From: Pyrinomonadaceae bacterium
Lineage (GTDB): Bacteria; Acidobacteriota; Blastocatellia; Pyrinomonadales; Pyrinomonadaceae
Direction: 5' to 3'
Assembly (NCBI GenBank): GCA_965214585.1
Contig: OZ243957.1
Location: 567,331 to 631,330 of the forward strand
Length of the DNA stretch: 64,000 bases
Shown here: one piece after another, positions 17,987-60,878 of the stretch
Layout: each line of letters starts with the position of its first letter
Numbering within the stretch: the first letter of the stretch is position 1
Program-made: the position numbers and the translations under genes
The notes under the pieces: generated by a model
Databases searched by the model: none
What the model was told of the DNA's origin: nothing
What the model saw: only the letters and a program-made list of their open reading frames with translations

Positions 17987-17989
17987 TAT

Positions 17990-20900
17990 TCATCCAATCA
18001 AATTTTCCGATGTTTCAATTAAATTCGTTTCAATCCACTCGATTAAAACCGTTTGCAAATCAATATTTTCAAGCGAAAAAGTCTTTTCCAAAAACAAATC
18101 TTTGACCTTATTTTGTGCCAAATCATAAACGCGCCGTTCGGTTTGAAACTTTACGGAATCGCGTTTTATCAAATCTTCGGGAAGTTCGTATTTTACAAAT
18201 TCCGCTTCGGTTAAATCAATCAAAACGCGGTTGCTTCGCGTGCCGTGAACAAAGCGGTGAACGCCCGTTTCTGCGCCGAAACGCGGCAGAGCGAGTTCGC
18301 CTTCGATGGAAAGCAAAACGCCGAAAGTTTCCTGTGATGCGGACTTTATAAATTTTTCCGCGTCCGCGATTTCCTTGCGATAGACGGCGCGATTAAAAAG
18401 CAGTTTGTCTTCGATTTTAACGTCTTTTTGTTTTTCCGTCGTGAACGCCAGACAATTTGTGATTTCCGCTTTTGAATGTTTGAAACAAACCGCGAACAGA
18501 CGCAAAAGTTTGAATAACTCGCTCGCGTTTTCGCTGAAAAATGCGAGTTTTATTTCGTTCGGATTTTGATATTGGAATTTCAAAAGTTTAAAAAGATAAT
18601 CTTGAAACTGATTTTCTTTTTTAATTATTTCATCGGCGTATTTTCGGTTTTCGCCCGCCGATTTTCCGTAGATTTCAAGCAGAATTTCATCTTCCGTTCG
18701 GCTGACTTCAAAGGCAAAATCTTTAACATTTTTCAAAAATTTTTCGATTTTCAATTTGCGTTCGATGCGTTTTCGGTCTTCGTCATAAATCCATTTCCCG
18801 CGTTTTTGGGCGGCTTCAAGCCGAATAATTTGATAAATTTCATCGCTTAATTCGGTCAAACGATAACTGGTGAGAAGTTTCTGCGTTCGGCGGCGAAGTT
18901 CGGCGATGCGTTCGGCATTTGTCGCTAAAATTGCCGTCGCCGTTTTACGCTTTTTCGGTTCGTCTTCGCGGATAAAATCGAGCGCGATTTTTCCGTTTTT
19001 AACTGCGGTTTCGACAATCAATTTTTCATCCGTCGGGCGCAAATTGAGTTCGGCGGAAAGCGGCGCGAGCAGATTTTTTTCAATAATCCGTTTCAGCGGA
19101 CGCGCTCCGTAACGAATGTCGTAACCCGTTTTTGCTAAATGCTTTAACACATCTTTGCCGATTTCCAATTTAACGGGACGAAACCGCAAACCGTCGCGCA
19201 TTTTCAGTTTTTCGATTTCCAAATCGGCGATTTTCAACACGGTTTTTTCGTCCAGCGGCGCGAACGGAACGATGCGGTCAAGCCGATTAAAAATTTCCGG
19301 TCTGAGAAAATCACGGACGGCGGAATCGAAATGTTTAACGGCGGCTTGTTTTTGCCGCGAATTATTTACAAAACCGGACTTTCCGCGCTGAAATTCGCTC
19401 GCGCCGAGATTTGATGTCATTACGATAATCGAATTTGTAAAATCCGCCGTGCGTCCGGCGGAATCGGTCAGACGACCTTCGCCGAGCATCTGCAAAAGCA
19501 GATCGAAAAACGAAGAATGCGCTTTTTCAAATTCGTCTAAAAGCACAACCGAGAAAGGCTGTTCGCGCACCTTCGCCGTTAAAAGTCCTTCCGCTTCGCC
19601 CGTTCCGCCGATCAGACGCTGCACCGAAATTGCGTTTGAAAATTCGCTCATATCAAAACGAATCATTCTCGATTCGTCGGAAAAGAAAAATTTGGCGAGC
19701 GATTTTGTCAATTCGGTTTTGCCGACTCCGGTTGGACCGATAAATAAAAGCGAAGCAATCGGTTTTCGCGGGCGCGTGAGTTTTGCTTTAACCGTTGCAA
19801 TCAAATCGGTTATCAGTTTCACGGCTTCATTTTGTCCGATGACTTTTTCCGCAAAAAACTTTTCCGTTTGCGATAAATTGAGCCGGATTTCGTCATTTAA
19901 AAGCAGTTCGGGCAAACCTGTTTCGTTTGAAAATTCCGCGTAAACTTTTTTTATCGAAAGTGTTTCGCCGTTTTCCAAACCGGCAAAAACATTTCGCAAA
20001 AATCTGGCAGGTCTGCCGGGAAAAGCCGAATATGTCGAATATCGGCGATGAATTTGGTCAATCGTTTTTATCGCGTTTGTGTCGGCTTTGTTTGAAAATT
20101 CCTTCGCCGCCGATTCTAAAATTTTCCGGCTCGTTTTTTTGTTCGGTTCTTCGATGCGGATTTGCTGAAACGCGCTCAAAAGATTCGGGTCGCTTTTTTC
20201 CAGAACCGGAATTTGTTCGGGTGTGCATTCGACGGCGACGACGATTTCGCCGCGGGCGATTTTCGGGCGCAGAAACGACGCGATGCCTTGCGTCGAATGG
20301 CTGCTTTTGCCGACTTCGAGCAGTTCGATCAAGTTTCCCAAATGCAAAATCGCGTTTTCTTTTTTCGCCTCGTCAATCAATTTTGAAGCGCGTTCCTGCC
20401 ACATTCCGAATCCGGTTTGTCCGGCGATCAGACGCGCACCGCTTGTCGCCCAAAACTTAAATTCCTTCAAACCGAGTTTTTCACGACGGCGCACCATTTC
20501 ATTGAAAATTGCCGTTTTTCCAACGCCCGCCGCGCCGACTAATAAAACGCCCGTCCGCTGATTTCCTTTGAAAATCTCCGCTAGAAGTTCCGTCTGTTTT
20601 TCCGTTTCGTAAGCGGTTTTTAGTTTTACGTTTGTTAAATCCGTGCCGATTTCTTCTAAAACGGATTTCTTTTCCGCTTCGTCTTTTTCTTCGGCAATCG
20701 CGCGTTGCTTCGCCGTCGGAAGATTGACGGCGAGTTCGTTTTTTTCGATGGAAATATTTTCGGTGCGTTCGAGCCAGCGCAGATATTGCAGAGATTTCGT
20801 CCAACCGTCGCGTTTGAGCGCGGCGAGAATTTCCGTTTCTATTTTCGCTTCAAAATCCTTTTGTTTTCTGGATAAAACAGCGATGTGAAGCGCGGGAATA

Positions 20901-21229
20901 TATGCGTAAAAATAACCGTCTTCGCGCTCGATTTTTACATAGTGAATTTTTACTTTCACCGCATCGCGCCACATTTCCGTCTTTTTCGGCGGTTCGATTT
21001 CCAATTCGATTTCCTTGATCTCCGCGTTTTCCGGCACGATTCGCTTGTATAAATTCGCGGCGTAATCGGCTTTTAAAATCACGTCTGCGTTAACACGGGC
21101 GTTATGTTTTGCCGAATCTTCTTTTGTGTGAAAGCGCGATATTTCGGGAAAATTCAACGCTTCGGAAATGAAAGTTTCGTCTTCGAGATGCTGCGTCAAA
21201 ATTATGAGCGAAAAAAAATGTGTCGGCAT
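17990..21229 (-). CDS. ClpA/ClpB-family double-ring AAA+ ATPase paralog 3 with unique N-domain and ~330-aa C-terminal extension
   Basis: 1079 aa. D1 GAAGVGKTA with degenerate Walker B LHLGNLIE. D2 GPTGVGKTE, VVLLDEFEKA, SNLG, GARPLKR. SGF at the IGL-loop position. C-terminal AETGxHxFV motif shared with paralog 2. Confidence 0.8.
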   Translation of the reverse strand: MPTHFFSLIILTQHLEDETFISEALNFPEISRFHTKEDSAKHNARVNADVILKADYAANLYKRIVPENAEIKEIELEIEPPKKTEMWRDAVKVKIHYVKIEREDGYFYAYIPALHIAVLSRKQKDFEAKIETEILAALKRDGWTKSLQYLRWLERTENISIEKNELAVNLPTAKQRAIAEEKDEAEKKSVLEEIGTDLTNVKLKTAYETEKQTELLAEIFKGNQRTGVLLVGAAGVGKTAIFNEMVRRREKLGLKEFKFWATSGARLIAGQTGFGMWQERASKLIDEAKKENAILHLGNLIELLEVGKSSHSTQGIASFLRPKIARGEIVVAVECTPEQIPVLEKSDPNLLSAFQQIRIEEPNKKTSRKILESAAKEFSNKADTNAIKTIDQIHRRYSTYSAFPGRPARFLRNVFAGLENGETLSIKKVYAEFSNETGLPELLLNDEIRLNLSQTEKFFAEKVIGQNEAVKLITDLIATVKAKLTRPRKPIASLLFIGPTGVGKTELTKSLAKFFFSDESRMIRFDMSEFSNAISVQRLIGGTGEAEGLLTAKVREQPFSVVLLDEFEKAHSSFFDLLLQMLGEGRLTDSAGRTADFTNSIIVMTSNLGASEFQRGKSGFVNNSRQKQAAVKHFDSAVRDFLRPEIFNRLDRIVPFAPLDEKTVLKIADLEIEKLKMRDGLRFRPVKLEIGKDVLKHLAKTGYDIRYGARPLKRIIEKNLLAPLSAELNLRPTDEKLIVETAVKNGKIALDFIREDEPKKRKTATAILATNAERIAELRRRTQKLLTSYRLTELSDEIYQIIRLEAAQKRGKWIYDEDRKRIERKLKIEKFLKNVKDFAFEVSRTEDEILLEIYGKSAGENRKYADEIIKKENQFQDYLFKLLKFQYQNPNEIKLAFFSENASELFKLLRLFAVCFKHSKAEITNCLAFTTEKQKDVKIEDKLLFNRAVYRKEIADAEKFIKSASQETFGVLLSIEGELALPRFGAETGVHRFVHGTRSNRVLIDLTEAEFVKYELPEDLIKRDSVKFQTERRVYDLAQNKVKDLFLEKTFSLENIDLQTVLIEWIETNLIETSENLIG

Positions 21230-26167: not shown

Positions 26168-26305
26168 GCGGGCGAGAGAGCAACCCTTCCTGACCTGCCA
26201 TCTTTTTATTCTTGAGCAGTTAATTGTAGTAATCTGTTCAAGATAAAGTGAAAAAGCAACAGGTTATCAAATTTACAGGTTTGGAAGGGTTGCTCTCTCG
26301 CCCGC
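26168..26305. repeat. MITE-like repeat family E copy 1 (23-bp TIR gcgggcgagagagcaacccttcc)
   Basis: perfect TIRs 26168-26190 / 26283-26305; second copy in inverted orientation at 55346-55488. Confidence 0.75.
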
Positions 26306-27835: not shown

Positions 27836-29140
27836 ATGACTGACGAAAAACTCGTTCGCGGCATCAGCCGTTGGGATTTGACGGCGATCACGATCAACAC
27901 GATTATCGGCGCGGGAATTTTCGGTCTGCCATCAAAAGTCGCCGCGCTGATCGGCACATACAGCCTCGTCGCGTTCGCCGTCTGCGCCGTGATTACGGCG
28001 TTTCTCGTAATTTGTTTTGCCGAAGTCGCCAGCCGTTTTCGCACAACCGGCGGAATGTATCTCTACGCGCACGAAGCGTTCGGCTCGCTCGCCGGTTTTG
28101 AAGTCGGCTGGCTTTACTGGGTCGTGCGCGTGACGACTTTCGCCGCCAACTGCAATTTACTGCTCGCTTATCTCGGTTTTTTCTACCCGTCGGCAAATGA
28201 AGGCGGCGTTCGCATTTTGCTGATCGCCGTAATAATTCTGGTAATAACGTGGGTAAATTTTATCGGCGTAAAAGAATCGGCGATTGTTACAAACATTTTT
28301 ACAGTCGGAAAAATCGTGCCTTTGCTGATTTTTGCACTTGTCGGGATGTTTTTCATTCAACCGGAAAATTTCAATTTTACCGCTTCGCCCGGATACGGAA
28401 ATTTTTCCGAAGCCGTTTTGATTTTAATTTACGCCTTCGTCGGCTTTGAAGCGGCGGTAATTCCGGCGGGCGAAACGAAAGACCCGCAAAAAAACGTCCC
28501 GTTCGCGCTTTTAACCGCGCTCGCAATTTGCGCCGTTTTGTATATTTTAATTCAAATCGTTTCCATCGGAACGCTGCCGAATTTAGCAAGTTCCGAACGC
28601 CCGATTGCCGATGCCGCAAGCATATTTCTCGGCACATTCGGCGCGTCATTTATTACAATCGGCGCGTTAATTTCGATTTTCGGCAACTTAAACGGCGGTT
28701 TTCTAACCGCTTCGCGCATCCCGTTTGCGATGGCGGAACACAGAGAACTTCCCCAAGTTTTGGCAAAAACGCACGACAAATTTAAAACGCCGTTCGTTTC
28801 CCTGTTTCTGACATCAATCGTAATTTTCATTTTCACCCTGCAAACATCGTTCATCGCCGCTTTAACAATCAGCACGATCACGCGCTTGATCGTCTATTCG
28901 ACAACCTGCGCCGCGCTGCCCGTTTTCCGCAACCGCGAAAACGCGCCGAAAGCCGAATTTCTCGTTCCGTTCGGCGTAATCGCTTCGATTTTATCTCTGA
29001 TTTTAGTCATTTGGCTGCTGACCAATGTTGATTTTCGCAAAGAAGGTCTGGCGATTTTAGCCGTCGCGCTCGTCGGTTTGGTTTTATATTTCGTCAACAA
29101 ATTTTTCAGTAATAAAGACGAAGAAATTGCCCGCGAATAA
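27836..29140 (+). CDS. APC-family amino acid permease
   Basis: 434 aa; ~12 TM helices; APC signature region GAGIFGLPSKVAALIGTYS. Confidence 0.75.
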   Translation: MTDEKLVRGISRWDLTAITINTIIGAGIFGLPSKVAALIGTYSLVAFAVCAVITAFLVICFAEVASRFRTTGGMYLYAHEAFGSLAGFEVGWLYWVVRVTTFAANCNLLLAYLGFFYPSANEGGVRILLIAVIILVITWVNFIGVKESAIVTNIFTVGKIVPLLIFALVGMFFIQPENFNFTASPGYGNFSEAVLILIYAFVGFEAAVIPAGETKDPQKNVPFALLTALAICAVLYILIQIVSIGTLPNLASSERPIADAASIFLGTFGASFITIGALISIFGNLNGGFLTASRIPFAMAEHRELPQVLAKTHDKFKTPFVSLFLTSIVIFIFTLQTSFIAALTISTITRLIVYSTTCAALPVFRNRENAPKAEFLVPFGVIASILSLILVIWLLTNVDFRKEGLAILAVALVGLVLYFVNKFFSNKDEEIARE

Positions 29141-29376
29141 ACGCGAATAAGCGCGAATAAGAAAAGAAATATTTAACAGGGATGAAGGGAATTAACGGGA
29201 TGGAAAATGATTCAAAATTCAAACTCAAAAAATCAAAAACTAAATCCTATAAAATAAAAATCCCTGTAAACCTCCTTCATCCCTGTTAAATATTTCTTAA
29301 AAATCTGTGTTTATCCGTATCTATCTGCGGCTAAAATTTCTTTTCTTATTCGCGCTTATTCGCGCCGATTCGCGGG
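29125..29376. repeat. nested palindromic element: outer ~40-bp inverted arms (cgcgaataa x3 tract) enclosing MITE-like family C copy 1 (29166-29297)
   Basis: gcccgcgaataaacgcgaataagcgcgaataagaaaagaaat vs atttcttttcttattcgcgcttattcgcgccgattcgcgggc; inner TIR tttaacagggatgaagg / ccttcatccctgttaaa. Confidence 0.8.
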
Positions 29377-29386
29377 CAAAATATCT

Positions 29387-33128: not shown

Positions 33129-34409
33129 ATGAAAGAGAATATAAAAACAACACGGCTCGAAAACGGCTTGACGATTATCACGGAAAAAATGCCAGACGTG
33201 CGAAGCGCGACGCTCGGATTTTGGTTTAAGAAAGGCTCGCGCGACGAACCTGCGAATTTGAACGGCATTTGCCATTTTATCGAACACGCCGTTTTCAAAG
33301 GGACGCAAAAACGCAACGCGCTCGACATTGCCGTTGAATCCGACCGGCTCGGCGGAAATCTCAACGCTTTTACGTCGCACGAAGAAACCGCTTTTTTGAT
33401 AAAAGTCGTGGACAAAAAGATCGCGCCCGCCTTTGATTTGATCGCCGATATGCTCGCCAATCCGATTTTTGGCGAAAAGGAAATGCGACGCGAGCGCGGC
33501 GTTATTTTGGAAGAAATAAAAATGGTCGAAGACACGCCCGAAGAACTTTTGACCGAACTTTTTCTGCGCGATTTTTTCCCCTCTCACGCCATCGGCTTGC
33601 CGATTGAAGGCACAAGAAAAACCGTCAAAACCTTCAAAAGCGAAGTTGCCGCCGAATTTCATCGGGAAAATTACACATCTGAAAATCTAGTCATAACTTG
33701 CGCGGGAAATGTTTCGCATAAGGAAATCGTCGAACTTGCCGAAAAGAATTTTGTAAAAAACACAAAAGCCAAAAACCAAAAGCCAAAAACCAAAGACCAA
33801 AAGCCAAATGTTTCAAATCCGATTTTGCTCAAAAAAAAATCAAATCTCGAACAAGCGCACTTGATAATCGCCGTTCCGTGGATAAAATCAAGCGACGAAA
33901 AACGCTACGCTGCATCGCTTTTGACGAGCATTTTAGGCGACGGAAATTCTTCGCGCCTTTGGCAAAACGTCCGCGAAAAACGCGGTTTAGCATATTCCGT
34001 CGGCGCAAGCGGTGATTCGTTTGACGATTGCGGAGTTTTCTCGATCTACGCCGGAACTTCGCCCGAAAAACTCGCGGAAGTCATTGATTTATCAATCGGC
34101 GAAATGCGGAAAATAAAAAAATTCGGCGTTGCTGTCAACGAATTAGATTTAGCAAAAGAACAAACTGTTGCTTCGATCTTATTGAGTTTAGAATCGAGTT
34201 CCGCCCGCGCCGAAAATCTCGCGCACAATGAAATCGTTCACGGCAGACAAATTCCCGTCGAAGAAACTTTGCGAAAGATCGAAAATGTGGAAATTGAAGA
34301 AATCCAAGCAATTGCCGAAGAATTTTTCCAAACTGAGAAAATCGCGCTCGCGTGTTTAGGAAACTTGAACGGCTTGAAAATTAAAAGAGAAAGATTGGAC
34401 GTTTCATAA
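33129..34409 (+). CDS. M16-family zinc metallopeptidase (single unit)
   Basis: Start at MKENIKTTRLENGL (ORF extends to 33042); inverted zinc motif HFIEHAVFKG. Confidence 0.75.
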   Translation: MKENIKTTRLENGLTIITEKMPDVRSATLGFWFKKGSRDEPANLNGICHFIEHAVFKGTQKRNALDIAVESDRLGGNLNAFTSHEETAFLIKVVDKKIAPAFDLIADMLANPIFGEKEMRRERGVILEEIKMVEDTPEELLTELFLRDFFPSHAIGLPIEGTRKTVKTFKSEVAAEFHRENYTSENLVITCAGNVSHKEIVELAEKNFVKNTKAKNQKPKTKDQKPNVSNPILLKKKSNLEQAHLIIAVPWIKSSDEKRYAASLLTSILGDGNSSRLWQNVREKRGLAYSVGASGDSFDDCGVFSIYAGTSPEKLAEVIDLSIGEMRKIKKFGVAVNELDLAKEQTVASILLSLESSSARAENLAHNEIVHGRQIPVEETLRKIENVEIEEIQAIAEEFFQTEKIALACLGNLNGLKIKRERLDVS

Positions 34410-34962: not shown

Positions 34963-34985
34963 GGCGGATTTAGATTGATTGTAGA

Positions 34986-35160
34986 GTCAGTAGCGTCGGC
35001 GTGAGCCGACGCGTTTTGTGCAGACAAACATTGACCAATCGGCTCACCTCGGACGCTGCTGACAATTTATTCCTTTTATAAACTGCTCTAATTAGGCATT
35101 AGGCATCAGGCATTGATAATTATGTCACGATAAAAAACATCTAAAATATGCTGATTGTAA
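34986..35160. repeat. repeat family A copy 2 (34986-35063, imperfect arms) followed by family F copy (35085-35160)
   Basis: gtcagtagcgtcggcgtgagccgacgcg ... aatcggctcacctcggacgctgctgac; aggcattgataattatgtcacgataaaaaacatctaaaata. Confidence 0.65.
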
Positions 35161-44745: not shown

Positions 44746-44850
44746 AATTTTTACAGGGATAAAGGAGATGAAGGAGATAAAAAATTTCACATTTCACATT
44801 TCAAAAAAATCCCTGTTCATCACCTTCATCCCTGTAAAAAAATCTTAAAT
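44746..44850. repeat. MITE-like repeat family C copy 4
   Basis: ttttacagggataaaggagatgaagg...caccttcatccctgtaaaaaaatc. Confidence 0.7.
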
Positions 44851-47026: not shown

Positions 47027-47343
47027 AAATTATTACTCCAGATTTTATAAAATTTAAATCAGAACCGTGAGCGGCAGCGAATAAATTAAATAATTGGTGT
47101 AGGGTTAAGAGTAACGGCTTTAGCCGTGAAAACGCCAGCGAAGCGCGGCGTTTTCTCACCACTAAAAGCGTTACTCTTACTACATATTCAAAAAAAGGTT
47201 GAGGACTTACCAAGTCGCTATCGCTCCCTGTTCTGATTTAAATTTTAACTCAAACGCGCCTTAGCGCAAAACCGCAAAAAAGGGACGAGAGATAAATTTC
47301 CCTCGCCCTTCTCATTTCTCACTTCTCACTTCTCACTTCTCAT

Positions 47344-50530: not shown

Positions 50531-50917
50531 TTATAATTTCCGATAAGGCACAAAAACTTTTGACAACATCGGAAAATGTTTTTTATTTAATGTAACTAAA
50601 ACGACATCTTCCGCTTCCACCGTCGCCGCGATTATTGCGTCGGCTAAACCTACGCCGTGACTTTTGAAATAATCCCGCCGAAATAATCCGCCATTTATTG
50701 CAATCTCAACCGTGATTGGAATAACCTTTAAGTTTTTAACGAACTCGTCCAAAACTTTTCACTCTTTATTTTCACGAACTCCAGAATATAATTCGGCGAC
50801 TGTTACGGAAGATACAAGCGGAATTTCAATCAGATTTTCTAAATAGTTGACGGCTTCGATACGATTTCGCAAGTAATCAATCAAAACATCCGTATCAAGC
50901 AAAAGAATATCTTCCAT
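50531..50917 (-). pseudogene. PIN-domain toxin gene interrupted by an in-frame TGA at codon 53
   Basis: MEDILLLDTDVLIDYL...VRENKE-TGA-KVLDEFVKNLKV...GLADAIIAATVEAE; both halves in the same frame (50917-50761 = 156 nt, a multiple of 3). Confidence 0.6.
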
Positions 50918-51183
50918 TATTCTTCATTCCATTGCGAAAATCTGTCAAATTCTTTTCTGATTTGCGTAAAATCCGGCAAATCTTCTCGGTCTTTCCAGAT
51001 TCCTTTCGCTTGTTTCAGACTTTTCAGCCACTTTTGTTTTTCAACTTCCTTTGCGCTTTCTTCACCGATCAGTTTTTCAACCGCTTCCTGCAAAAGATCA
51101 TCCTCAGTTTTACCCGTGCGCCGCGAAAGTTCGCGCAAAAGTTCGGTTTGTGAATCAGTTAGATTGATTTGTGCCGTTGTCAT
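50917..51183 (-). CDS. ribbon-helix-helix (CopG-like) antitoxin
   Basis: 88 aa; INLTDSQTELLRELSRRTGKTEDDLLQEAVEKLI RHH fold signature; stop overlaps PIN start by 1 nt. Confidence 0.6.
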   Translation of the reverse strand: MTTAQINLTDSQTELLRELSRRTGKTEDDLLQEAVEKLIGEESAKEVEKQKWLKSLKQAKGIWKDREDLPDFTQIRKEFDRFSQWNEE

Positions 51184-51188
51184 TTTCT

Positions 51189-51569
51189 TTATTTAACAAG
51201 TGCCTGCGGATAATTCGGACTTTCGGGATTAACCGTTACCGAACGCCTCGACGGATTTAAAACCAAATCCATATCTTCCATTGGAACTGAACCTAAAAGC
51301 ACTTCGTTTCCCAAAACCAACGCGCCGACAAAACAGGAACGGTTTTCAAATCTGACACGAACCGGACCGACATACGGAACTAAATGTTTATCTCCGGTGG
51401 CGGTTATTATCTCGCGCTTTTCCGCTTCTTCAAGATTTAACTGAATTTGTATGTGCTTGGGAATACAGAGCATCAACGCGCCCGTGTCCGCCAGCGAATT
51501 TACCGTAATCGGCTTGAGATCGGTTTCTCTCGGATTTCCCAATTCGATTTCAGCATATACATAACCCAT
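51189..51569 (-). CDS. retropepsin-like (clan AA) aspartic protease
   Basis: 126 aa; catalytic ADTGA motif; located between atpA and TA pair. Confidence 0.65.
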   Translation of the reverse strand: MGYVYAEIELGNPRETDLKPITVNSLADTGALMLCIPKHIQIQLNLEEAEKREIITATGDKHLVPYVGPVRVRFENRSCFVGALVLGNEVLLGSVPMEDMDLVLNPSRRSVTVNPESPNYPQALVK

Positions 51570-53248: not shown

Positions 53249-53322
53249 ATTGTTTTAAAGGTGAATGGTGAAAATGAATGAGTAAATGACGAATCTTAAA
53301 ATCAACCATTTACAATTTACTA

Positions 53323-53865
53323 TTAACCATTTACTAATTTATATTTAAGTTCTTCTAATTTTGTTTTCACAGAGCCGTCGTAAACGGTTGAACCGATACG
53401 GGTTACGACTCCGCCGATAATAGTTTCGTCAATTTCGTAATTCAAGCGCACGTCCTTTCCGGTCATTTTATTTAAACTGGTCTGAAATTCCGCTTTCTGC
53501 GTTTCGGAAAGCGGACGCGCGGAAATGATCTTTGCGGACGTGATGCCGCTTCGCTCTTCTAAAACTCCGTCCAGACGCTCGTTTATTTCGCTGATTTGGC
53601 TCAAACGGTCATTTTTCAGCAGAACGCGCAAAAAGTTTGCGGTGGTTTTCGTCGGCTTTGTTCTGGAGATCAAACTTTCCAGAACTTTAACTTTATTTTC
53701 CTGTGCAATCGAGGGATTGCCGAATGCGGTTTGCAGATCGGCGTTTGAATTTATCATCTCTTCCCAAGATTTCAGTTCCGCTTTGACCGAATCGGTTTCG
53801 CCGGATTTCATAACGACATCGGCAAGCGCGTGGGCATAGCGGCGGGCAACTGTTTCAACGCTCAT
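53323..53865 (-). CDS. atpH: F0F1 ATP synthase delta subunit
   Basis: 180 aa; OSCP/delta pattern (ARRYAHALADV). Confidence 0.8.
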   Translation of the reverse strand: MSVETVARRYAHALADVVMKSGETDSVKAELKSWEEMINSNADLQTAFGNPSIAQENKVKVLESLISRTKPTKTTANFLRVLLKNDRLSQISEINERLDGVLEERSGITSAKIISARPLSETQKAEFQTSLNKMTGKDVRLNYEIDETIIGGVVTRIGSTVYDGSVKTKLEELKYKLVNG

Positions 53866-54454: not shown

Positions 54455-54467
54455 ATAAATACGTATG

Positions 54468-54676
54468 GTTAATTGTTGATAGTTAATTGTTCATTGTTAA
54501 AAAGCCAATTATCGAAATCTTTATAAAAGTAAACGGCTCGTTCAGGTTAAGAAAAACAATGAACAATTAACTATCAACAATGAACGAATTACAATTAACT
54601 ATCAACAATGAACGAATTACAATTAACTATCAACAATGAACGAATTACAATTAACTATCAACAATGAACGAATTTA
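54468..54676. repeat. 28-bp tandem direct repeat (aattacaattaactatcaacaatgaacg x ~4, 54555-54676) with an inverted partial copy at 54468-54500
   Basis: four head-to-tail identical units read directly; no unique spacers. Confidence 0.85.
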
Positions 54677-54688: not shown

Positions 54689-55141
54689 TCAAGCCGTTTT
54701 CAGTATATTCTGACTGATCTTATCAGCCATAATTTTCGCTTCGTCGGCGATCTGTGCTTCGGCTTTAGTGGTTTGCGCTTGTAATTCGGCAAGTTCCGCC
54801 GCCGTTCTCTGTTCGACTTCGGATTTTACGCGGCTGATCTCCGCTTCTCTCTGCAAAACGGCTTCGCGGCGTTCTCTCTCGATCAGATCGTAACTTTCCG
54901 AACGCGCTTCGAGCAGTTTCTGATTGTAAAGTTCCTGCTTTTCCTCAACGTCGCGCAGAATTTCTTCCGACTCGGTAAACCTGCCGCCGCTGCTTTTCTC
55001 GCGCTCTTCGATAACGCGATTGATCGGGCGGAAAAATGTGCGGTTCAAAATCCAGATCATCAGCAAAATCAGCGCGATATGTATAAATATCGTGCCGTCC
55101 GGCATAATCGAAACGCTTTCCTGAAAGGCAAACAAAACCAT
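54689..55141 (-). CDS. F0F1 ATP synthase subunit b' (second b-type subunit)
   Basis: 150 aa; N-terminal TM then charged helix; alternative start MPDGT at 55105 has an AGGAAA SD. Confidence 0.6.
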   Translation of the reverse strand: MVLFAFQESVSIMPDGTIFIHIALILLMIWILNRTFFRPINRVIEEREKSSGGRFTESEEILRDVEEKQELYNQKLLEARSESYDLIERERREAVLQREAEISRVKSEVEQRTAAELAELQAQTTKAEAQIADEAKIMADKISQNILKTA

Positions 55142-55345: not shown

Positions 55346-55615
55346 AGTTTTGCGAGCGCAGAACAACCCTTCCAAATCTGCTAATTTGATTATCCTAACT
55401 TTTTTCACTTGATCTTGAATAGATCATCACCAATAACTGCTCAAGATAATACAGATTGCAGGTCAGGAAGGGTTGTTCTACGCCCGCTTTTTGCAAAAGT
55501 GAAATTGCAATAAAATGATTTCGTCGCGTCCGTATTTACGCATCGGCTCACGCCGAAGCTGCCGACAAGAAACGCCGAAGCTGCCGACAAGAAACGTCGA
55601 AACTGCTGATAAGAG
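55346..55615. repeat. repeat family E copy 2 (55346-55488, inverted orientation) plus degenerate family A half-copy with 22-bp tandem duplication (55521-55615)
   Basis: aagttttgcgagcgcagaacaacccttcc...ggaagggttgttctacgcccgc; cgcatcggctcacgccgaagctgccgacaagaaac x2. Confidence 0.7.
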
Positions 55616-55695
55616 TTTCAATCAACTTGACAGTAAATCATCCGAACGCTTAATTTTAAGCGTATGAATTTCTTCAAGTCATAAATAATTTTTCA

Positions 55696-55795
55696 GGAGG
55701 CGCATCTCGTCTGGTGGCGGGCGCGGTCTTCAAAACCGTCTGCGAGATTGCGAGAGCAAATCTTGGGTGGGTTCGATTCCCACACGCCTCCGCCA
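55696..55795 (+). tRNA. selC: tRNA-Sec (anticodon TCA), selC candidate
   Basis: 8-bp acceptor GGAGGCGC/cGCCTCC. 6-bp D-stem CTCGTC/GGCGGG with wobble pairs, as in E. coli selC. Anticodon loop cTTCAAAa. Long 7-bp variable arm. T-loop GGTTCGATTCC; discriminator G then CCA. Confidence 0.7.
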
Positions 55796-55796: not shown

Positions 55797-55835
55797 GCCG
55801 ATTTTGGATTTGGGATTTGGGATTTGGGATTTGTT
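55797..55835. repeat. tandem heptamer repeat gatttgg x4
   Basis: gattttggatttgggatttgggatttgggatttg. Confidence 0.8.
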
Positions 55836-55857
55836 GATTTGAATTTAGAGGTTTATT

Positions 55858-56247
55858 ATGACGCAGGAGGAGATGAAAACGCGGACGAAAAAATTTGCGT
55901 TACGGGTGATTAAGTTGGTTGAGAGTTTGCCGAAAACTAAGACGGCGGATGTTATTGGTCGTCAACTTTTACGCAGCGGAACTTCGGTTGGGGCGAATTA
56001 TCGGGCGGCTTGTCGCGGAAAATCAACGGCGGATTTTATTTCAAAATTGAGCATTGTTGAAGAAGAAGCGGACGAATCAATGTATTGGATGGAACTTTTA
56101 ATCGAGGCGGAAATTGTTAAGGAAACTTTGTTGTCAAATCTTTTGGATGAAGCAAATCAGATTCTTTCAATAATCGTTTCAACAATCAAAACTTCCAAAG
56201 AAAAACAAAATCCCGAATCCCGAATCCCAAATCCTAAATCGTTATGA
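55858..56247 (+). CDS. four-helix-bundle protein (23S rRNA intervening-sequence protein family)
   Basis: 129 aa; characteristic LLRSGTSVGANYRAA and EEADESMYWMELL motifs. Confidence 0.7.
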   Translation: MTQEEMKTRTKKFALRVIKLVESLPKTKTADVIGRQLLRSGTSVGANYRAACRGKSTADFISKLSIVEEEADESMYWMELLIEAEIVKETLLSNLLDEANQILSIIVSTIKTSKEKQNPESRIPNPKSL

Positions 56248-57374
56248 AAGAATGGATTTCCCTAAATATGACTCCCGGCATCGGACCGCGCAAGGCGACG
56301 CAGCTGCTTGAAAGGTTCGGTTCGGCGGAAAATGTTTTTAACGCGCGTCGAAGTGAATTGGAAAGTTTACGGCTCAAACCGGAAACGATTTTGAGTATTT
56401 TGAATCGTGAACTGCACGAAAAAGCCGTCGAAGAATTGGAAAACGTGAAAAAACTCGGCGGCGACGTTTTGATTTTGGACGACGGAAGTTATCCGTTTTT
56501 GCTGCGGGAAATTCCCGATCCGCCGATCACGCTTTATGTTTTGGGAAATTGGCAGGAATGTTTTGAAATGCCGTGCATCGGAGTTGTCGGCTCGCGCCGC
56601 TGCTCGACTTACGGGCAAAACGCTTCGGAAATGCTCGGACGCGATTTGGCGGCTCACGGAATTTGCGTCGTTTCCGGTTTTGCACGCGGAATTGATTCAG
56701 CCGCGCATCAGGGCGCGATTGACGCAAAGGGGAAGACAATCGCCGTTTTCGGAACTGGAATTGACAAAATTTATCCGAAAGAAAATGCCAAACTCGTCAG
56801 ACTGATTTTGGATTCGGGCGGCGCAATCGTTTCGCAATTTCCTCTCGGAACGCCGCCGCTTCGGGAAAATTTCCCGTATCGCAACCGCATTATTTCCGGT
56901 TTGAGTCTTGGAATTTTGGTCGTCGAAGCGTCGGAAAGAAGCGGCTCTCTGATAACGGCGCGGCTGGCGATGGAACAAAACCGCGAAGTTTTAGCCGTTC
57001 CGGGAAATATCACTTCAAAAAATTCTTTCGGCACAAATTATTTAATAAAATCGGGCGCGAAACTCGTTCAGCAATGGCAGGATGTCGTTGCCGAACTGCC
57101 TTCGGAAATCGCCGCCGAGATTTTGCCGCCGCCTGTTGATGATAAAAAATCCGTCGAAAAAACGGCGCAAAAAGAAGAGAAAATGCCCGCCGGAATCGGC
57201 GAAAATGAAAAGAAAATCTACGAAATTTTGCGAGCCGACCAAGAAACGCACATTGACGTTTTGCTGGAAAAAACCGAATTGGAATTCGGCGAATTGAACA
57301 AAGCGATTGTTGATCTGGATTTGAAAGATTTGATTCGCGTTTTGCCGGGAAACAATTATGCGAGGAAAATGTAA
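56244..57374 (+). CDS. dprA: DNA-processing protein A
   Basis: 376 aa; N-terminal SAM-like GIGPRKATQLLERFGS, Rossmann-like core, C-terminal wH; 4-nt overlap with upstream gene. Confidence 0.85.
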   Translation: MKEWISLNMTPGIGPRKATQLLERFGSAENVFNARRSELESLRLKPETILSILNRELHEKAVEELENVKKLGGDVLILDDGSYPFLLREIPDPPITLYVLGNWQECFEMPCIGVVGSRRCSTYGQNASEMLGRDLAAHGICVVSGFARGIDSAAHQGAIDAKGKTIAVFGTGIDKIYPKENAKLVRLILDSGGAIVSQFPLGTPPLRENFPYRNRIISGLSLGILVVEASERSGSLITARLAMEQNREVLAVPGNITSKNSFGTNYLIKSGAKLVQQWQDVVAELPSEIAAEILPPPVDDKKSVEKTAQKEEKMPAGIGENEKKIYEILRADQETHIDVLLEKTELEFGELNKAIVDLDLKDLIRVLPGNNYARKM

Positions 57375-57410: not shown

Positions 57411-57746
57411 ATGAACACGATAACTTCAAGCACGGAAATTACGTTTACAAAAACAAATGCGGGAGTTTTGCGAATCGGAAAAACGCGCGTTTCGCTCGAT
57501 TCGGTGATAATCGCTTTTAATTCGGGAGCAACGCCCGAACAGATTATTCAGGATTTTGACACGCTGACGCTGGCGGAAATTTACGCGGCGATTAGCTATT
57601 ATTTGAATAATCGTGAAGAAGTAAATTCTTATCTGGCAAAGCGGGAAAAACGGAATAAAGAACTTCGCAAAATCAACGACGAGCGGTTTAATCATCAAGG
57701 ATTACGCACAAGACTCTTAGCGCGTCGCCGCAAAGTTGGTAAATAA
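57411..57746 (+). CDS. DUF433 antitoxin-like protein
   Basis: 111 aa; VLRIGKTRVSLDSVIIAFNSGATPEQIIQDFDTLTLAEIYAAISYY matches DUF433. Confidence 0.65.
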   Translation: MNTITSSTEITFTKTNAGVLRIGKTRVSLDSVIIAFNSGATPEQIIQDFDTLTLAEIYAAISYYLNNREEVNSYLAKREKRNKELRKINDERFNHQGLRTRLLARRRKVGK

Positions 57747-57757
57747 GTTTTTGGACT

Positions 57758-58111
57758 ATGAAATTTCTTTCCGACGAAGATTTCAATAATCATATTGTGC
57801 GCGGTTTATTTCGGCATTTTCCACATCTTGATTTGATCAGAGTTCAAGATACCGAATTGATGGAAAAACACGATAAAGAAATTCTGGCTTGGGCGGGAAA
57901 AGAAAATCGTCTGATTTTAACTCACGATTTTGCAACAATACTTGATTTTGCTTATGAAAGAATCAGTAAAAATTTACCGATGGCGGGCGTGGTCGCTGTT
58001 CCTCAAAATTTGTCAATAGGCAAAGCAATAAATGAACTTTCCATACTAATCGAATTTAGCTTGGAAAATGAATGGGAAAGCCAAGTTGTTTTTATTCCAT
58101 TAAAAACATAA
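57758..58111 (+). CDS. DUF5615 (PIN-like) toxin partner of DUF433
   Basis: 117 aa; adjacent to DUF433 in canonical order; LILTHDFATILDFA pattern. Confidence 0.6.
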   Translation: MKFLSDEDFNNHIVRGLFRHFPHLDLIRVQDTELMEKHDKEILAWAGKENRLILTHDFATILDFAYERISKNLPMAGVVAVPQNLSIGKAINELSILIEFSLENEWESQVVFIPLKT

Positions 58112-58358: not shown

Positions 58359-60878
58359 ATGAGTAAAAATTTAGTTATCGTAGAATCGCCGGCGAAGGCG
58401 AAAACAATCAATAAATATCTGGGAAGCGATTACAAAGTAATGGCTTCAATCGGGCATATCAAAGATTTGCCGACGAAGGAACTCGGCGTTGATGTCGAGA
58501 ACAATTTCGAGCCGACTTATGAAATTATTCCCGATAAACGCAAGCGAAATAATAAAAAAACCGTTTCCGAATTGAAAAAGGCGGCGAAGGCTTCGGACGC
58601 GATCTATCTGGCGGGCGATCCTGACCGCGAAGGCGAGGCGATTTGTCAGCATTTGGCGGAAGAATTGACCAAAAGGAATAAAAAACCCGTGCATCGCGTG
58701 ATGTTCAACGAGATCACGAAAAAGGCGATTCTCGAAGCGTTTAAGCATCCGACGGAAGTTGATCAAAACTTGGTTGACGCGCAGCAGGCGAGGCGCGTTT
58801 TGGATCGGCTTGTCGGTTACAAAGTTTCGCCGATTTTGTGGAAAACTATCGGCGGAAGGCTTTCGGCGGGAAGAGTTCAGACGGTTGCCGTGCGCCTCGT
58901 TGTTGAACGCGAGCGCGAGATCGAGGCGTTTGTCAAAACTGAATACTGGTCAATTGTGGCAAATTTAGCCGCGAAACTGCCGCCGAATTTTGACGCGCGG
59001 CTTTATAAGGTCGAAGATCAAACGGTTAAACTCGGAAAATTTGACGAAGACGTAAAAGACACGGAAATTCACATCAAGGACGAAAAACAGGCGAAATCAA
59101 TTGTCGAAGAAGCCGAAAAGCAGGATTTTGTCGTTGAAAAAGTTGTGAAAAAGGAGCGCAAACGAAATCCGACACCGCCGTTTATCACTTCAAAATTGCA
59201 GCAGGACGCTTCGCGCCGATTCAGTTTTTCGGTCAAAAAAACGATGATGGTCGCGCAGAAACTTTACGAAGGAAAAGAACTCGGCTCGGAAGGCGCGGTC
59301 GGTTTGATAACTTATATGCGCTCGGATTCGACGAGAGTTTCGCCCGACGCGCTCGAAGGCGTGCGGGAATTTATCGGCAAAGATTACGGCGACGAATATC
59401 TGCCGAAAAAGCCCAGAATTTACAGTTCCAAAAAGGCTTCGCAAGACGCGCACGAAGCGATTCGTCCGACGGACGTGAACCGCACGCCCGAAAGTTTGAA
59501 AAAATATCTGAATGCGGAAGAACTCAAACTTTACACGCTTATTTGGCAGAGATTTGTTGCGTCGCAGATGATGCCCGCAATTTTCGATCAAACGACGATT
59601 GACATAAACGCCGGGCGTTTCACGTTTCGCGCAACGGGTTCGGTGCAGAAATTCGACGGGTTTCTAAAAGTTTATCAGGAAACTCGCGGACTTTCCGACA
59701 AAAAAGATGACGACGAGGACGAAGAAGAAAGAACGCTGCCGCTCGTTGAAGAAAAAGACAAACTGAAACTCAATTCGATCACGCCGAATCAGCATTCTAC
59801 CGAACCGCCGCCGCGTTATTCGGAAGCGTCGCTCGTCAAAGTTTTGGAAGAAAAAGGAATCGGCAGACCTTCGACTTACGCGGCGATTATGGCGACGATT
59901 CAGACTAGGGATTACGTCGAAAAGATCGAAGGGCGTTTTCATCCGACGGGACTCGGAACAACCGTTAATGATCTGCTCGTCAAGAATTTTGATGAGATTT
60001 TCGATACGACCTATACGGCGAAAATGGAACAGGATTTGGACGAGATCGAGGAAGGCAAACTCGATTGGCGCAATGCGATGAAGGATTTTTACGGGAAATT
60101 CTCCAAAAAACTGACAACCGCCGAAGAAAATATTAAAAACACGAAAAAACAGGCGATTCCGACCGATGAAGTTTGCGAAAATTGCGGCGCGGGAATGGTC
60201 ATAAAATTCGGCAGATTCGGGCAGTTTCTCGCCTGCGCGACTTATCCCGAATGTAAAACCACACGCGAAGTTACAAAAAAAGGCGACGGCGAAGCCGAAG
60301 GAGAAGCCGAAGAGATCGAACCGTGCGAACTTTGCGGAAAAGATATGGCTTTAAAGCGCGGGCGTTACGGCACATTTTACGGCTGCACGGGCTACCCGGA
60401 ATGCAAAAATATTCGCAAAATTGACAAGAAAAGCGGCGAAGCGATCTCGACTCCGCCGCCGGTTGAACTCGACGAAAAATGTCCGGTTGACGGCGCGAAT
60501 CTCGTTAAAAGAACCGGACGCTACGGCGAATTCGTCGCCTGCTCGAATTACCCGAAATGTAAATACGTCAAACGCGAAACAATCGGCATCGCCTGCCCGC
60601 GAGCCGGATGCAAAGGCGAACTCGTCGTCAAAAAAACACGGCGCGGCAAAGCGTTTTACGGCTGCTCGAATTATCCGAAATGCGACGAAGTTTTCTGGGA
60701 TAAACCGATTGACAAACCGTGTCCCGAATGCAAAGCTCCGTTCGTTTTGGAAAAGACGACGAAGAAAGAAGGCACGTTCCGCTATTGCAAAAATGATGAA
60801 TGTGATTATAAAATAAGCGTCAGCGATTCAACACCAAAATCCGAAAAAGAAGCGGAAGCGAAAACTTCCGCAAAATAA
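58359..60878 (+). CDS. topA: DNA topoisomerase I with C-terminal zinc ribbons
   Basis: 839 aa; Toprim N-terminus (LVIVESPAKAKTI), active-site Tyr region, four C4 zinc-ribbon repeats. Confidence 0.9.
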   Translation: MSKNLVIVESPAKAKTINKYLGSDYKVMASIGHIKDLPTKELGVDVENNFEPTYEIIPDKRKRNNKKTVSELKKAAKASDAIYLAGDPDREGEAICQHLAEELTKRNKKPVHRVMFNEITKKAILEAFKHPTEVDQNLVDAQQARRVLDRLVGYKVSPILWKTIGGRLSAGRVQTVAVRLVVEREREIEAFVKTEYWSIVANLAAKLPPNFDARLYKVEDQTVKLGKFDEDVKDTEIHIKDEKQAKSIVEEAEKQDFVVEKVVKKERKRNPTPPFITSKLQQDASRRFSFSVKKTMMVAQKLYEGKELGSEGAVGLITYMRSDSTRVSPDALEGVREFIGKDYGDEYLPKKPRIYSSKKASQDAHEAIRPTDVNRTPESLKKYLNAEELKLYTLIWQRFVASQMMPAIFDQTTIDINAGRFTFRATGSVQKFDGFLKVYQETRGLSDKKDDDEDEEERTLPLVEEKDKLKLNSITPNQHSTEPPPRYSEASLVKVLEEKGIGRPSTYAAIMATIQTRDYVEKIEGRFHPTGLGTTVNDLLVKNFDEIFDTTYTAKMEQDLDEIEEGKLDWRNAMKDFYGKFSKKLTTAEENIKNTKKQAIPTDEVCENCGAGMVIKFGRFGQFLACATYPECKTTREVTKKGDGEAEGEAEEIEPCELCGKDMALKRGRYGTFYGCTGYPECKNIRKIDKKSGEAISTPPPVELDEKCPVDGANLVKRTGRYGEFVACSNYPKCKYVKRETIGIACPRAGCKGELVVKKTRRGKAFYGCSNYPKCDEVFWDKPIDKPCPECKAPFVLEKTTKKEGTFRYCKNDECDYKISVSDSTPKSEKEAEAKTSAK

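What the first reader, a model, noticed from the sequence alone, without database searches (positions are those of the whole stretch)
55696..55795. Candidate selC (tRNA-Sec, anticodon TCA) embedded in a repeat-rich intergenic region
The stretch has selC features throughout. The acceptor stem is 8 bp. The 6-bp D-stem with wobble pairs nearly matches the E. coli selC pattern. The anticodon loop contains TCA. There is a long variable arm and a GGTTCGATTCC T-loop. A selC gene implies the organism makes selenoproteins, yet no selA, selB or selD is in this window. selC loci are classic integration hotspots. This one is immediately flanked by family E and family A repeat remnants upstream, and by a gatttgg x4 tandem repeat and a four-helix-bundle protein gene downstream.
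Basis: partly seen in the sequence, partly recalled or inferred. Interest (0 to 1): 0.55.

Follow-up and report, generated by a model that had tools for sequence, protein, structure and literature searches.

The report
Selenocysteine tRNA gene, confirmed
This is a genuine selenocysteine-tRNA gene of an uncultured soil acidobacterium, conserved next to dprA in its relatives. It is ordinary in kind, but a small hairpin-flanked gene cassette sits directly behind it.

Summary
ARAGORN calls tRNA-SeC (anticodon tca) at exactly 55696-55795. Rfam tRNA-Sec scores 70.9 bits against a threshold of 47. The same gene sits directly upstream of dprA in 72 of 80 related Pyrinomonadaceae loci. Across 58 distinct sequences the cloverleaf is backed by compensatory changes. 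One correction: the acceptor stem has 7 Watson-Crick pairs plus a conserved non-pair (C.A or A.A), not 8 bp.

No selA, selB or selD, integrase, or duplicate of the tRNA 3' end lies in the window, so this is not a classical selC island. The genome-wide check for selenium genes could not be run with these tools. Indirect support comes from a dead copy in one relative and clean deletions in four others, the patchy pattern typical of the selenocysteine trait.

The GATTTGG repeat and the four-helix-bundle gene form one unit. A 443-nt cassette carries a PF05635 gene enclosed by 34-nt inverted arms made of heptamer repeats. It is present in 26 and absent in 43 of 69 selC-dprA spacers. Related genes carry similar arms in at least 19 unrelated genomic contexts. 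The architecture matches 23S rRNA intervening sequences, but the location is outside rRNA.

Verdict: an ordinary tRNA-Sec gene, with a modestly interesting neighbour.

The parts
55627..55656 (+). Probable sigma-70-type promoter of selC: -35 TTGACA (55627-55632), 18-nt spacer, -10 TAATTT (55651-55656).
   Evidence: A TTGACA-N17/18-TAnnnT motif recurs at about the same place upstream of tRNA-Sec in the relatives that also have the atp operon upstream. Function is inferred. The simple consensus scan did not list it.
55696..55795 (+). tRNA-Sec gene (selC), anticodon UCA, G73, CCA encoded.
   Evidence: ARAGORN. Rfam RF01852 at 70.9 bits against 47. Cloverleaf in the minimum-energy fold. Covariation in 58 orthologues.
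55799..55832 (+). 5' arm of the cassette: tandem heptamers GATTTGG x4.9.
   Evidence: TRF. Inverted repeat I2: 34 nt, 91% complementary to 56208-56241. The arms pair in the RNA minimum-energy fold.
55858..56247 (+). Four-helix-bundle protein gene (129 aa; PF05635 23S_rRNA_IVP, TIGR02436), with a GAGG ribosome-binding motif upstream.
   Evidence: Pfam E 4.4e-18. NCBIfam E 3.2e-26. PDB 2RLD E 1.1e-21. Median dN/dS 0.15 among orthologues.
56208..56241 (+). 3' arm of the cassette: tandem heptamers (CCCAAAT type). It lies inside the last 13 codons of the four-helix gene and ends 2 nt before the dprA ATG.
   Evidence: TRF. Inverted repeat I2. The C-terminal tails NPKS.. are translations of the arm.
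56244..57374 (+). dprA (DNA-processing protein A). Its ATG overlaps the TGA stop of the four-helix gene (ATGA).
   Evidence: Pfam PF02481 E 4.3e-79. TIGR00732. The overlap occurs in 13 of 20 loci. In relatives dprA starts 6-17 nt after tRNA-Sec.
55352..55487 (.). Palindromic intergenic repeat element (43-nt arms) upstream of selC. A second copy lies at about 26170-26300.
   Evidence: Inverted repeat I1. I1 (120 nt, 79%). Pairwise alignment with 84% column identity.
55523..55615 (.). Half copy of a second palindromic repeat family. Its end, ACGCCGAAGCTGCCGACAAGAA, is triplicated in tandem (55550-55614).
   Evidence: TRF period 22 x3.0. Matches to full palindromes at 5665-5745 and 34985-35014.
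54689..55141 (-). atpF' (ATP synthase b'), first gene of the divergently transcribed atp operon. It marks the upstream boundary of the spacer.
   Evidence: Pfam PF00430. The atp operon lies upstream of selC in 31 of 80 relatives.
57411..58111 (+). DUF433/DUF5615 gene pair (a probable toxin-antitoxin type module) between dprA and topA.
   Evidence: Pfam. No homologue in any of the 80 related loci.
58359..60878 (+). topA (DNA topoisomerase I), the conserved downstream neighbour.
   Evidence: Pfam PF01131 E 2.8e-129. Found downstream of dprA in most relatives.

Best explanation
The segment is the functional selC gene (tRNA-Sec, anticodon UCA) of an uncultured Pyrinomonadaceae bacterium (Acidobacteriota, Blastocatellia).

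Shown here:
- The sequence folds as a bacterial-type tRNA-Sec. It has a 13-layer acceptor/T helix (7 Watson-Crick pairs, one conserved non-pair and a 5-bp T-stem), a 6-bp D-stem with a 4-nt loop, a long variable arm, G73 and an encoded CCA.
- The gene is kept at the same place, directly upstream of dprA, across the family, and base pairs are maintained by compensatory changes.

Inferred from established knowledge of the bacterial selenocysteine pathway:
- The gene is transcribed from a conserved TTGACA/TAnnnT promoter about 65 nt upstream, as the first gene of a selC-(four-helix gene)-dprA unit.
- The tRNA is released by RNase P and 3' processing and charged with serine by SerRS.
- SelA converts the serine to selenocysteine using selenophosphate made by SelD.
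- SelB carries the tRNA to UGA codons that are followed by a SECIS hairpin.

The repeats and the four-helix-bundle gene downstream are not part of the tRNA. They form a separate 443-nt hairpin-enclosed cassette lodged in the selC-dprA spacer.
For: - Program calls: ARAGORN finds tRNA-SeC at 55696-55795. Rfam tRNA-Sec scores 70.9 bits against 47, E 1.7e-12, over the full model.
- Distribution in relatives: ARAGORN finds the tRNA just upstream of dprA in 68 of 80 Pyrinomonadaceae loci. Four more loci have it cut by a contig end or an N-mask.
- Covariation: in 58 distinct sequences, 95% of cells pair, against 38-52% when partners are slid. Ten pairs change on both sides, in the D, variable and T stems. 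The anticodon loop CUUCAAA, G73 and CCA are invariant.
- UGA is an ordinary stop codon here: 17 of 52 window genes end in TGA. A UCA tRNA must therefore be restricted to special sites.
- A dead copy is easy to recognise. L070 has UCA changed to UAA, two stem-breaking changes and a replaced 3' end. Four relatives (L042, L060, L068, L079) have a clean deletion. The copy in the window is intact.
- Co-transcription: dprA starts only 6-17 nt after the tRNA in five relatives, leaving no room for a separate promoter.
- A conserved promoter motif lies upstream.
- Acidobacteria are already known to have selenoproteins (PMC1794560, Table 2).
Against: - No selA, selB, selD or recognisable selenoprotein gene lies in the 64-kb window.
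- No SelA or SelD signature motif was found in the 10-kb flanks of the 80 relatives.
- The rest of the genome could not be read, so the pathway partners are assumed, not shown.
- The eighth acceptor layer is never a standard pair, a departure from the textbook 8-bp stem.
- No paper in the searchable library links Pyrinomonadaceae or Blastocatellia to selenocysteine.
Confidence: 0.9

Rival explanations
1. It is a tRNA-Sec look-alike rather than a selenocysteine tRNA. Candidates are an 'allo-tRNA' or a selC*-type tRNA, of the kind described in Acidobacteria and other phyla. Such a tRNA would act as an opal suppressor or a regulatory RNA without SelA or SelB.
For: - Allo-tRNAs with tRNA-Sec-like D-arms and long variable arms are reported in Acidobacteria and are picked up in tRNA-Sec searches (PMC5389517).
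- The eighth acceptor pair here is a conserved mismatch.
- No sel genes were seen in the sequence available.
Against: - Allo-tRNAs have a 12-bp acceptor/T branch (8/4 or 9/3) and many different anticodons (PMC5389517).
- This tRNA has 8 residues on each acceptor strand plus a 5-bp T-stem whose middle pair covaries (GC 37, CG 13, UG 6, AU 2). That gives 13 layers.
- The anticodon is UCA in all 58 sequences.
- It scores 24 bits above the Rfam tRNA-Sec threshold.
- TGA is a common stop codon, so a free opal suppressor would be costly.
Confidence: 0.04
2. It is a relic: an intact-looking selC left behind after the selenocysteine machinery was lost, and no longer used.
For: - The selenocysteine trait is lost often in bacteria (PMC1794560).
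- This family shows losses of the tRNA itself.
- No sel genes were seen in the window.
Against: - The window's copy keeps every pair of the family consensus, the anticodon, G73 and CCA.
- Stems evolve by compensatory change, which points to purifying selection over the whole family.
- Where the gene is dispensable it decays visibly (L070) or is deleted.
Confidence: 0.05
3. The locus is a classical selC-associated integration site. On this reading, an integrase-borne island or prophage has inserted at the 3' end of the tRNA gene, and the repeats are its scars.
For: - selC is a known island site in enterobacteria (general knowledge).
- The spacers on both sides of selC are longer here than in relatives and hold repeats.
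- A cassette lies downstream, and a DUF433/DUF5615 pair found in none of the relatives lies between dprA and topA.
Against: - No integrase or transposase among about 50 window genes.
- No second copy of the tRNA 3' end within 64 kb, even allowing 3 mismatches.
- The atp | selC-dprA-topA gene order is that of 31 relatives.
- The extra DNA amounts to a few hundred bases per spacer, not an island.
Confidence: 0.02

Closest known systems
Escherichia coli selC / bacterial 8/5 tRNA-Sec (Rfam RF01852)
   Same: Anticodon UCA in a CUUCAAA loop, a 6-bp D-stem with a 4-nt loop, a long variable arm, a 5-bp T-stem, G73, an encoded CCA, and 8 residues per acceptor strand.
   Different: The eighth acceptor layer, next to the T-stem, is C.A (A.A in some relatives) instead of a Watson-Crick pair, in all 58 family members. 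The variable arm is longer. The gene sits upstream of dprA, not near sel or fdh genes.
Bacterial tRNA-Sec variants with a 12-bp acceptor/T helix (Secmarker paper, PMC5330540), and allo-tRNAs (PMC5389517)
   Same: They show that bacterial tRNA-Sec departs from the strict 8+5 rule in several lineages. Allo-tRNAs share the tRNA-Sec-like D-arm and long variable arm, and they occur in Acidobacteria.
   Different: Here the helix keeps 13 layers, and one layer is simply unpaired. The anticodon is fixed as UCA, whereas allo-tRNAs have 8/4 or 9/3 branches and varied anticodons.
23S rRNA intervening sequences carrying an S23p ORF (Coxiella burnetii, Leptospira; PMC4990558). This is the comparator for the neighbouring cassette.
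   Same: An element of about 430-445 nt, terminal inverted repeats forming a stem of about 28-35 bp, and a PF05635-family ORF in the loop. The window's cassette is 443 nt with 34-nt arms.
   Different: It lies between a tRNA gene and dprA, not in helix 9, 25 or 45 of 23S rRNA. The arms are built of tandem 7-8-nt units. The ORF runs into the 3' arm and overlaps the dprA start. RNase III cleavage is untested here.
Cyanobacterial STRR (short tandemly repeated repetitive) heptamers
   Same: Tandem 7-nt units in intergenic DNA, sometimes forming hairpins. Period 7 is the commonest period among the window's tandem arrays.
   Different: A different phylum and different unit sequences. The link is a resemblance recalled from the literature, not a tested relationship.

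Membership tests
Bacterial tRNA-Sec (selC) | Anticodon UCA in a 7-nt loop | tested here: met
   The loop is CUUCAAA. ARAGORN gives anticodon tca at position 35. It is invariant in 58 orthologues.
Bacterial tRNA-Sec (selC) | 13-layer acceptor/T helix in the 8+5 arrangement | tested here: inconclusive
   There are eight residues per acceptor strand plus a 5-bp T-stem, which gives the right length. However, layer 8 (C8:A89) is a non-standard pair in 58 of 58 sequences. The geometry is kept but the pairing is not.
Bacterial tRNA-Sec (selC) | 6-bp D-stem with a 4-nt D-loop | tested here: met
   C11-G26 to C16-G21 with loop UGGU. Pairing is 100% across relatives, and three pairs change on both sides.
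Bacterial tRNA-Sec (selC) | Long variable arm and G73 discriminator (SerRS and SelA identity elements) | tested here: met
   The variable arm is about 9 bp, with 6 covarying pairs. G97 of the alignment (G73) and CCA are invariant.
Bacterial tRNA-Sec (selC) | Score above the curated covariance-model threshold | tested here: met
   RF01852 scores 70.9 bits against a gathering score of 47.
Bacterial tRNA-Sec (selC) | Same genome encodes SelA, SelB and SelD, plus UGA/SECIS selenoprotein genes | not testable with these tools
   None in the window or in the flanks of relatives.
Allo-tRNA (8/4 or 9/3) | 12-bp acceptor/T branch with a 4- or 3-bp T-stem | tested here: not met
   The T-stem has 5 pairs, 100% paired, and the middle pair covaries.
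selC-associated genomic island | Integrase gene next to the tRNA, and a direct repeat of the tRNA 3' end bounding the insert | tested here: not met
   No integrase by Pfam. The 27-nt 3' end occurs once in 64 kb, even allowing 3 mismatches.
23S rRNA intervening sequence with S23p ORF (for the neighbouring cassette) | PF05635 ORF enclosed by terminal inverted repeats that form a long stem | tested here: met
   PF05635 E 4.4e-18. Arms of 34 nt, 91% complementary. The arms pair in the minimum-energy fold, z -3.65.
23S rRNA intervening sequence with S23p ORF (for the neighbouring cassette) | Located inside a 23S rRNA helix | tested here: not met
   No rRNA in the window. The cassette lies between tRNA-Sec and dprA. 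Twenty other contexts of related cassettes contain no Rfam family.
23S rRNA intervening sequence with S23p ORF (for the neighbouring cassette) | Excised from the transcript by RNase III | not testable with these tools
   This needs RNA end-mapping or in vitro cleavage.

The most novel reading that the evidence does not exclude
The cassette behind selC (55799-56241) may be an intervening-sequence-type element living outside rRNA. It is a PF05635 four-helix-bundle gene held in the loop of a roughly 35-bp stem built from tandem 7-8-nt units.

On this reading, the ORF-bearing 23S rRNA intervening sequences are only the rRNA-resident subset of a wider class of hairpin-loop gene cassettes. These cassettes settle in transcribed spacers, here a tRNA-Sec/dprA co-transcript. 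They are tolerated because the stem lets RNase III cut them out of the RNA.

The evidence does not exclude this:
- Arms accompany related genes in at least 19 unrelated contexts.
- The two arms co-evolve.
- In one pair of close relatives the difference is exactly the loop content.
- The gene is under purifying selection.
Probability: 0.3. Interest if true: 0.55.

Novelty: new member of a known kind. Interest (0 to 1): 0.22.

Why it matters
For the finding itself, the gain is modest. It places a well-supported selenocysteine tRNA in Pyrinomonadaceae, common soil Acidobacteriota for which I found no published link to selenocysteine. The gene is fixed at a selC-dprA-topA locus and has been lost repeatedly in some lineages. 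This gives a ready-made presence/absence panel for asking which selenoproteins these aerobic soil bacteria use.

The conserved non-pair at the junction of acceptor stem and T-stem is a small natural variant. It lies in the region that, in E. coli, separates SelB from EF-Tu recognition.

The neighbouring cassette is the more unusual item. If its stem is an RNase III site, it would link the long-unexplained ORF-bearing rRNA intervening sequences to a broader family of elements in ordinary operons.

Tried and rejected
1. An exact-sequence look-up of the window's DprA, meant to find the source contig, returned nothing. The source genome could therefore not be located or extended.
2. SelA (GDKLLGGPQ-type) and SelD (GxGCK) motifs were searched in six frames of the window and 80 loci. 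Only chance hits appeared.
3. A screen for ORFs joined by one in-frame TGA gave about 100 candidates, mostly shadow frames. The only coherent one is a PIN-domain gene at 50531-50923. It has a weak hairpin after the TGA (z -1.3). I read it as a probable pseudogene, not a selenoprotein.
4. Literature searches for Blastocatellia or Pyrinomonadaceae together with selenocysteine found nothing.
5. I first counted 8 relatives as lacking the tRNA. Reading the sequences showed one N-masked copy (L035), one contig-truncated copy (L016) and one pseudogene (L070). Five true absences remain: four clean deletions, plus L005, which has none in its 449 nt of upstream DNA.
6. I looked for proof of recent transposition, meaning near-identical cassettes with unrelated flanks. 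The similar pairs turned out to be orthologous or locally rearranged loci, so mobility rests only on patchy distribution and diversity of contexts.
7. A first dN/dS run picked up dprA by mistake. It was redone for the four-helix gene.
8. The consensus promoter scan missed the promoter that comparison with relatives suggests.

Full report
**1. The observation**

ARAGORN finds a single tRNA in the 64-kb window: tRNA-SeC, anticodon tca, at 55696-55795 on the + strand. Rfam's tRNA-Sec model (RF01852) matches 55696-55791 end to end at 70.9 bits, against a gathering score of 47, with E 1.7e-12. It is the only Rfam family to reach threshold in the window.

Features read from the sequence and the minimum-energy fold:
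- Acceptor pairs G1-C96 to G7-C90.
- An eighth layer, C8 opposite A89.
- A two-base linker, AU.
- A 6-bp D-stem (two G.U pairs) with loop UGGU.
- An anticodon stem with loop CUUCAAA.
- A variable arm of about nine pairs with one bulge.
- A 5-bp T-stem with loop UUCGAUU.
- Discriminator G, and an encoded CCA.

The description is therefore right. The one correction is that the acceptor stem has seven Watson-Crick pairs plus a mismatch, not 8 bp.

**2. Organism and conservation**

The adjacent DprA protein finds 80 loci, nearly all labelled Pyrinomonadaceae or Acidobacteriota MAGs, with a best identity of 83%. The window therefore comes from an uncultured member of that family whose own species is not in the collection.

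- ARAGORN finds a tRNA-SeC just upstream of dprA in 68 of these loci.
- Reading the remaining loci showed four more copies, cut by a contig end or hidden by an N-mask: L016, L035, L051 and L071.
- Fifty-eight distinct sequences align with 88% mean column identity.
- On the cloverleaf, 95% of cells form standard pairs, against 38-52% when the 3' partners are slid by 1-3 columns.
- Ten pairs change on both sides, in the D, variable and T stems.
- No shuffle out of 500 reaches the observed covariation score.
- The anticodon loop, G73 and CCA never vary.
- Layer 8 is never a standard pair. It is C.A or A.A in 58 of 58 sequences, so the mismatch is a family trait and not damage.

Published surveys show that bacterial tRNA-Sec departs from strict 8+5 in several lineages (PMC5330540). 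This one keeps the 13-layer length.

**3. Is it used?**

TGA ends 17 of 52 genes in the window. UGA is therefore a normal stop codon, and a UCA tRNA must be confined to special sites. This is what SelB and SECIS do (established knowledge).

The family also shows what disuse looks like:
- L070 carries a dead copy. Its anticodon is changed from UCA to UAA, it has two stem-breaking substitutions, and its 3' 18 nt are replaced.
- In L042, L060, L068 and L079 the upstream gene ends 10-20 nt before dprA, with no tRNA at all.

Strict conservation in most lineages, with decay or deletion in a few, is the pattern described for the selenocysteine trait (PMC1794560). That paper also lists selenoproteins in Acidobacteria.

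No selA, selB or selD lies among about 50 window genes. None of their signature motifs lies in the flanks of relatives. The rest of the genome is out of reach with these tools.

**4. Rivals**

- *Allo-tRNAs.* These tRNA-Sec look-alikes are reported in Acidobacteria. They have a 12-bp branch (8/4 or 9/3) and varied anticodons (PMC5389517). Here the T-stem has five pairs and the middle one covaries. The anticodon is fixed. That membership test fails.
- *A classical selC island.* There is no integrase or transposase in the window. There is no second copy of the tRNA 3' end, even with three mismatches allowed. The gene order atp operon | selC-dprA-topA is shared with 31 relatives.

**5. How the locus is organised**

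In the relatives that also have the atp operon upstream, a TTGACA-N17/18-TAnnnT motif precedes the tRNA. In the window it lies at 55627-55632 and 55651-55656.

In five relatives dprA starts only 6-17 nt after the tRNA. dprA must therefore be transcribed through selC. A tRNA-mRNA co-transcript is the likely ground state; this is an inference.

The window's upstream spacer is 554 nt, against roughly 170-290 nt in most relatives. The extra DNA consists of:
- A 136-nt palindromic element (55352-55487) with a second copy near 26170-26300.
- A half copy of another palindromic family, whose end is triplicated as a 22-nt tandem repeat.

**6. The downstream repeat and the four-helix gene are one unit**

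- The GATTTGG array (55799-55832) is 91% complementary over 34 nt to an array at 56208-56241.
- Between the two lies a 129-aa PF05635/TIGR02436 four-helix-bundle gene. Its closest solved structure is 2RLD.
- In the predicted RNA fold the arms pair and enclose the whole ORF (z -3.65).
- The 3' arm lies inside the last codons of the ORF.
- The TGA stop of the ORF overlaps the dprA ATG, both here and in 13 of 20 loci.

Distribution in the family:
- Among 69 selC-dprA spacers, the gene is present in 26 and absent in 43. Of the 26, 22 have such arms and four carry a divergent type without arms.
- Presence is scattered over a DprA tree, and very close relatives differ.
- In the pair L019/L053 both arms are kept almost base for base. 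The difference is exactly the interior: a gene in one, a 17-nt loop in the other.
- In other close pairs the whole spacer differs.
- The gene is under purifying selection, with median dN/dS 0.15. For comparison, dprA gives 0.14.
- Two copies, in L049 and L066, are frameshifted.

**7. The arms belong to the gene, not to selC**

- A metagenome scan with the protein returned 80 loci at 47-78% identity. Only the four closest are next to tRNA-Sec and dprA.
- Flanking inverted arms with a local score of at least 30 occur in 44 of the 80 loci. Most are tandem GATTTCGG, GATTGCGG or GAATGCGG units.
- The same score is reached in only 1 of 182 displaced control windows and 0 of 80 shuffles.
- Loci with at least 1 kb of flank fall into 30 unrelated context groups. 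Armed cassettes occur in at least 19 of them.
- Twenty representative loci contain no known RNA family.
- Within the selC-linked set, a locus's own arms match each other better than they match the arms of other loci: mean score 45.0 against 36.5, with no permutation out of 10,000 reaching it.

The size, the stem and the ORF family match the ORF-bearing 23S rRNA intervening sequence of Coxiella. That element is 428-444 nt, has a 28-bp stem, and is cut by RNase III (PMC4990558). The location here is not rRNA.

I found no pair of near-identical cassettes in clearly unrelated flanks. Mobility is therefore inferred, not shown.

**8. Verdict**

The finding is a correct call of an ordinary object: a new member of the bacterial tRNA-Sec family. 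It has one small conserved peculiarity, the unpaired eighth layer, and an unremarkable housekeeping neighbourhood. It scores low on surprise.

The side observation is the part worth a further look. It is an intervening-sequence-like, hairpin-enclosed four-helix-bundle gene cassette, recurrently gained or lost in a tRNA-mRNA spacer, with relatives in many other contexts.

Noticed in passing
window 55799-56241: A 443-nt cassette: a PF05635 four-helix-bundle gene enclosed by 34-nt inverted arms made of tandem heptamers. It is present in 26 and absent in 43 of 69 selC-dprA spacers. Related genes carry similar arms in at least 19 unrelated metagenomic contexts. The architecture is that of ORF-bearing 23S rRNA intervening sequences, but outside rRNA.
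   Followed up: yes
L070:9897-9976; L042, L060, L068, L079 just upstream of dprA: Repeated loss of selC in relatives. L070 has a pseudogene (UCA changed to UAA, broken stems, 3' end replaced). The other four loci have clean deletions, with the upstream gene ending 10-20 nt before dprA.
   Followed up: yes
window 55703 and 55784 (tRNA positions 8 and 89); alignment A1 columns 8 and 90: The eighth acceptor layer of tRNA-Sec is C.A or A.A in all 58 distinct Pyrinomonadaceae sequences. It is a conserved non-pair at the acceptor/T-stem junction.
   Followed up: partly
window-wide, e.g. 3341-3363, 33756-33808, 35091-35114, 44784-44803, 47308-47342, 53308-53341, 54468-54500: Period 7 is the commonest period among the tandem arrays TRF reports (about 18 of 63 rows). 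Many of these arrays are intergenic. In relatives the selC-dprA spacer is almost always made of heptamer arrays whose unit differs by lineage (AAGGATA, AGTGAAT, GGTCAGT and others). This is reminiscent of cyanobacterial STRR repeats.
   Followed up: partly
window 17330-17989: A GxxExxY / PD-(D/E)XK_3 gene (17470-17865, minus strand; TIGR04256) is bracketed by 41-nt arms that are 98% complementary (17330-17370 and 17946-17986). Each arm is itself part of a local hairpin. This is a second small gene held inside an inverted repeat.
   Followed up: partly
window 54465-54674: The spacer between atpF' and atpF inside the atp operon holds a 31-nt hairpin (97% complementary). It also holds four perfect tandem copies of a 28-nt unit (ACAATTAACTATCAACAATGAACGAATT).
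   Followed up: no
window 50531-51569: Between atpG and atpA, inside the atp operon, lie a PIN-domain gene, an 88-aa upstream partner and a 126-aa ORF. The PIN reading frame is interrupted by one in-frame TGA (codon at 50759-50761). It is followed by a weak hairpin (z -1.3). This is probably a pseudogene.
   Followed up: partly
window 57411-58111: A DUF433/DUF5615 gene pair lies between dprA and topA and has no counterpart in any of 80 related loci. Many relatives carry a roughly 250-aa Cys-rich protein gene or PIN-type toxin-antitoxin pairs there instead. The dprA-topA spacer is therefore another variable spot.
   Followed up: partly
window 55352-55487 and about 26170-26300; 55523-55615, 5665-5745, 34985-35014: Two families of palindromic intergenic repeats have copies upstream of selC. 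One is a 136-nt hairpin element. The other is a half copy of a roughly 80-nt palindrome whose end has been triplicated as a 22-nt tandem repeat.
   Followed up: partly
window 29127-29379: 47-nt inverted arms (91% complementary) built of 10-nt tandem units (CGCGAATAAG). They enclose a second, nested hairpin of the AGGGATGAAGG repeat family, which recurs at 32842, 37491 and 44749.
   Followed up: no
window 10381-12747, 14058-17318, 17990-21229 (all minus strand): Three paralogous ClpB-like AAA+ genes in a row (788, 1086 and 1079 aa). They share 63-78% identical DNA segments.
   Followed up: no
L016:81-557; L006, L009, L032, L040 between tRNA-Sec and dprA: The same spacer can hold other cargo. 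L016 has a 158-aa predicted membrane protein gene. Four other relatives carry a divergent four-helix-bundle gene (37-47% identical) without heptamer arms.
   Followed up: partly
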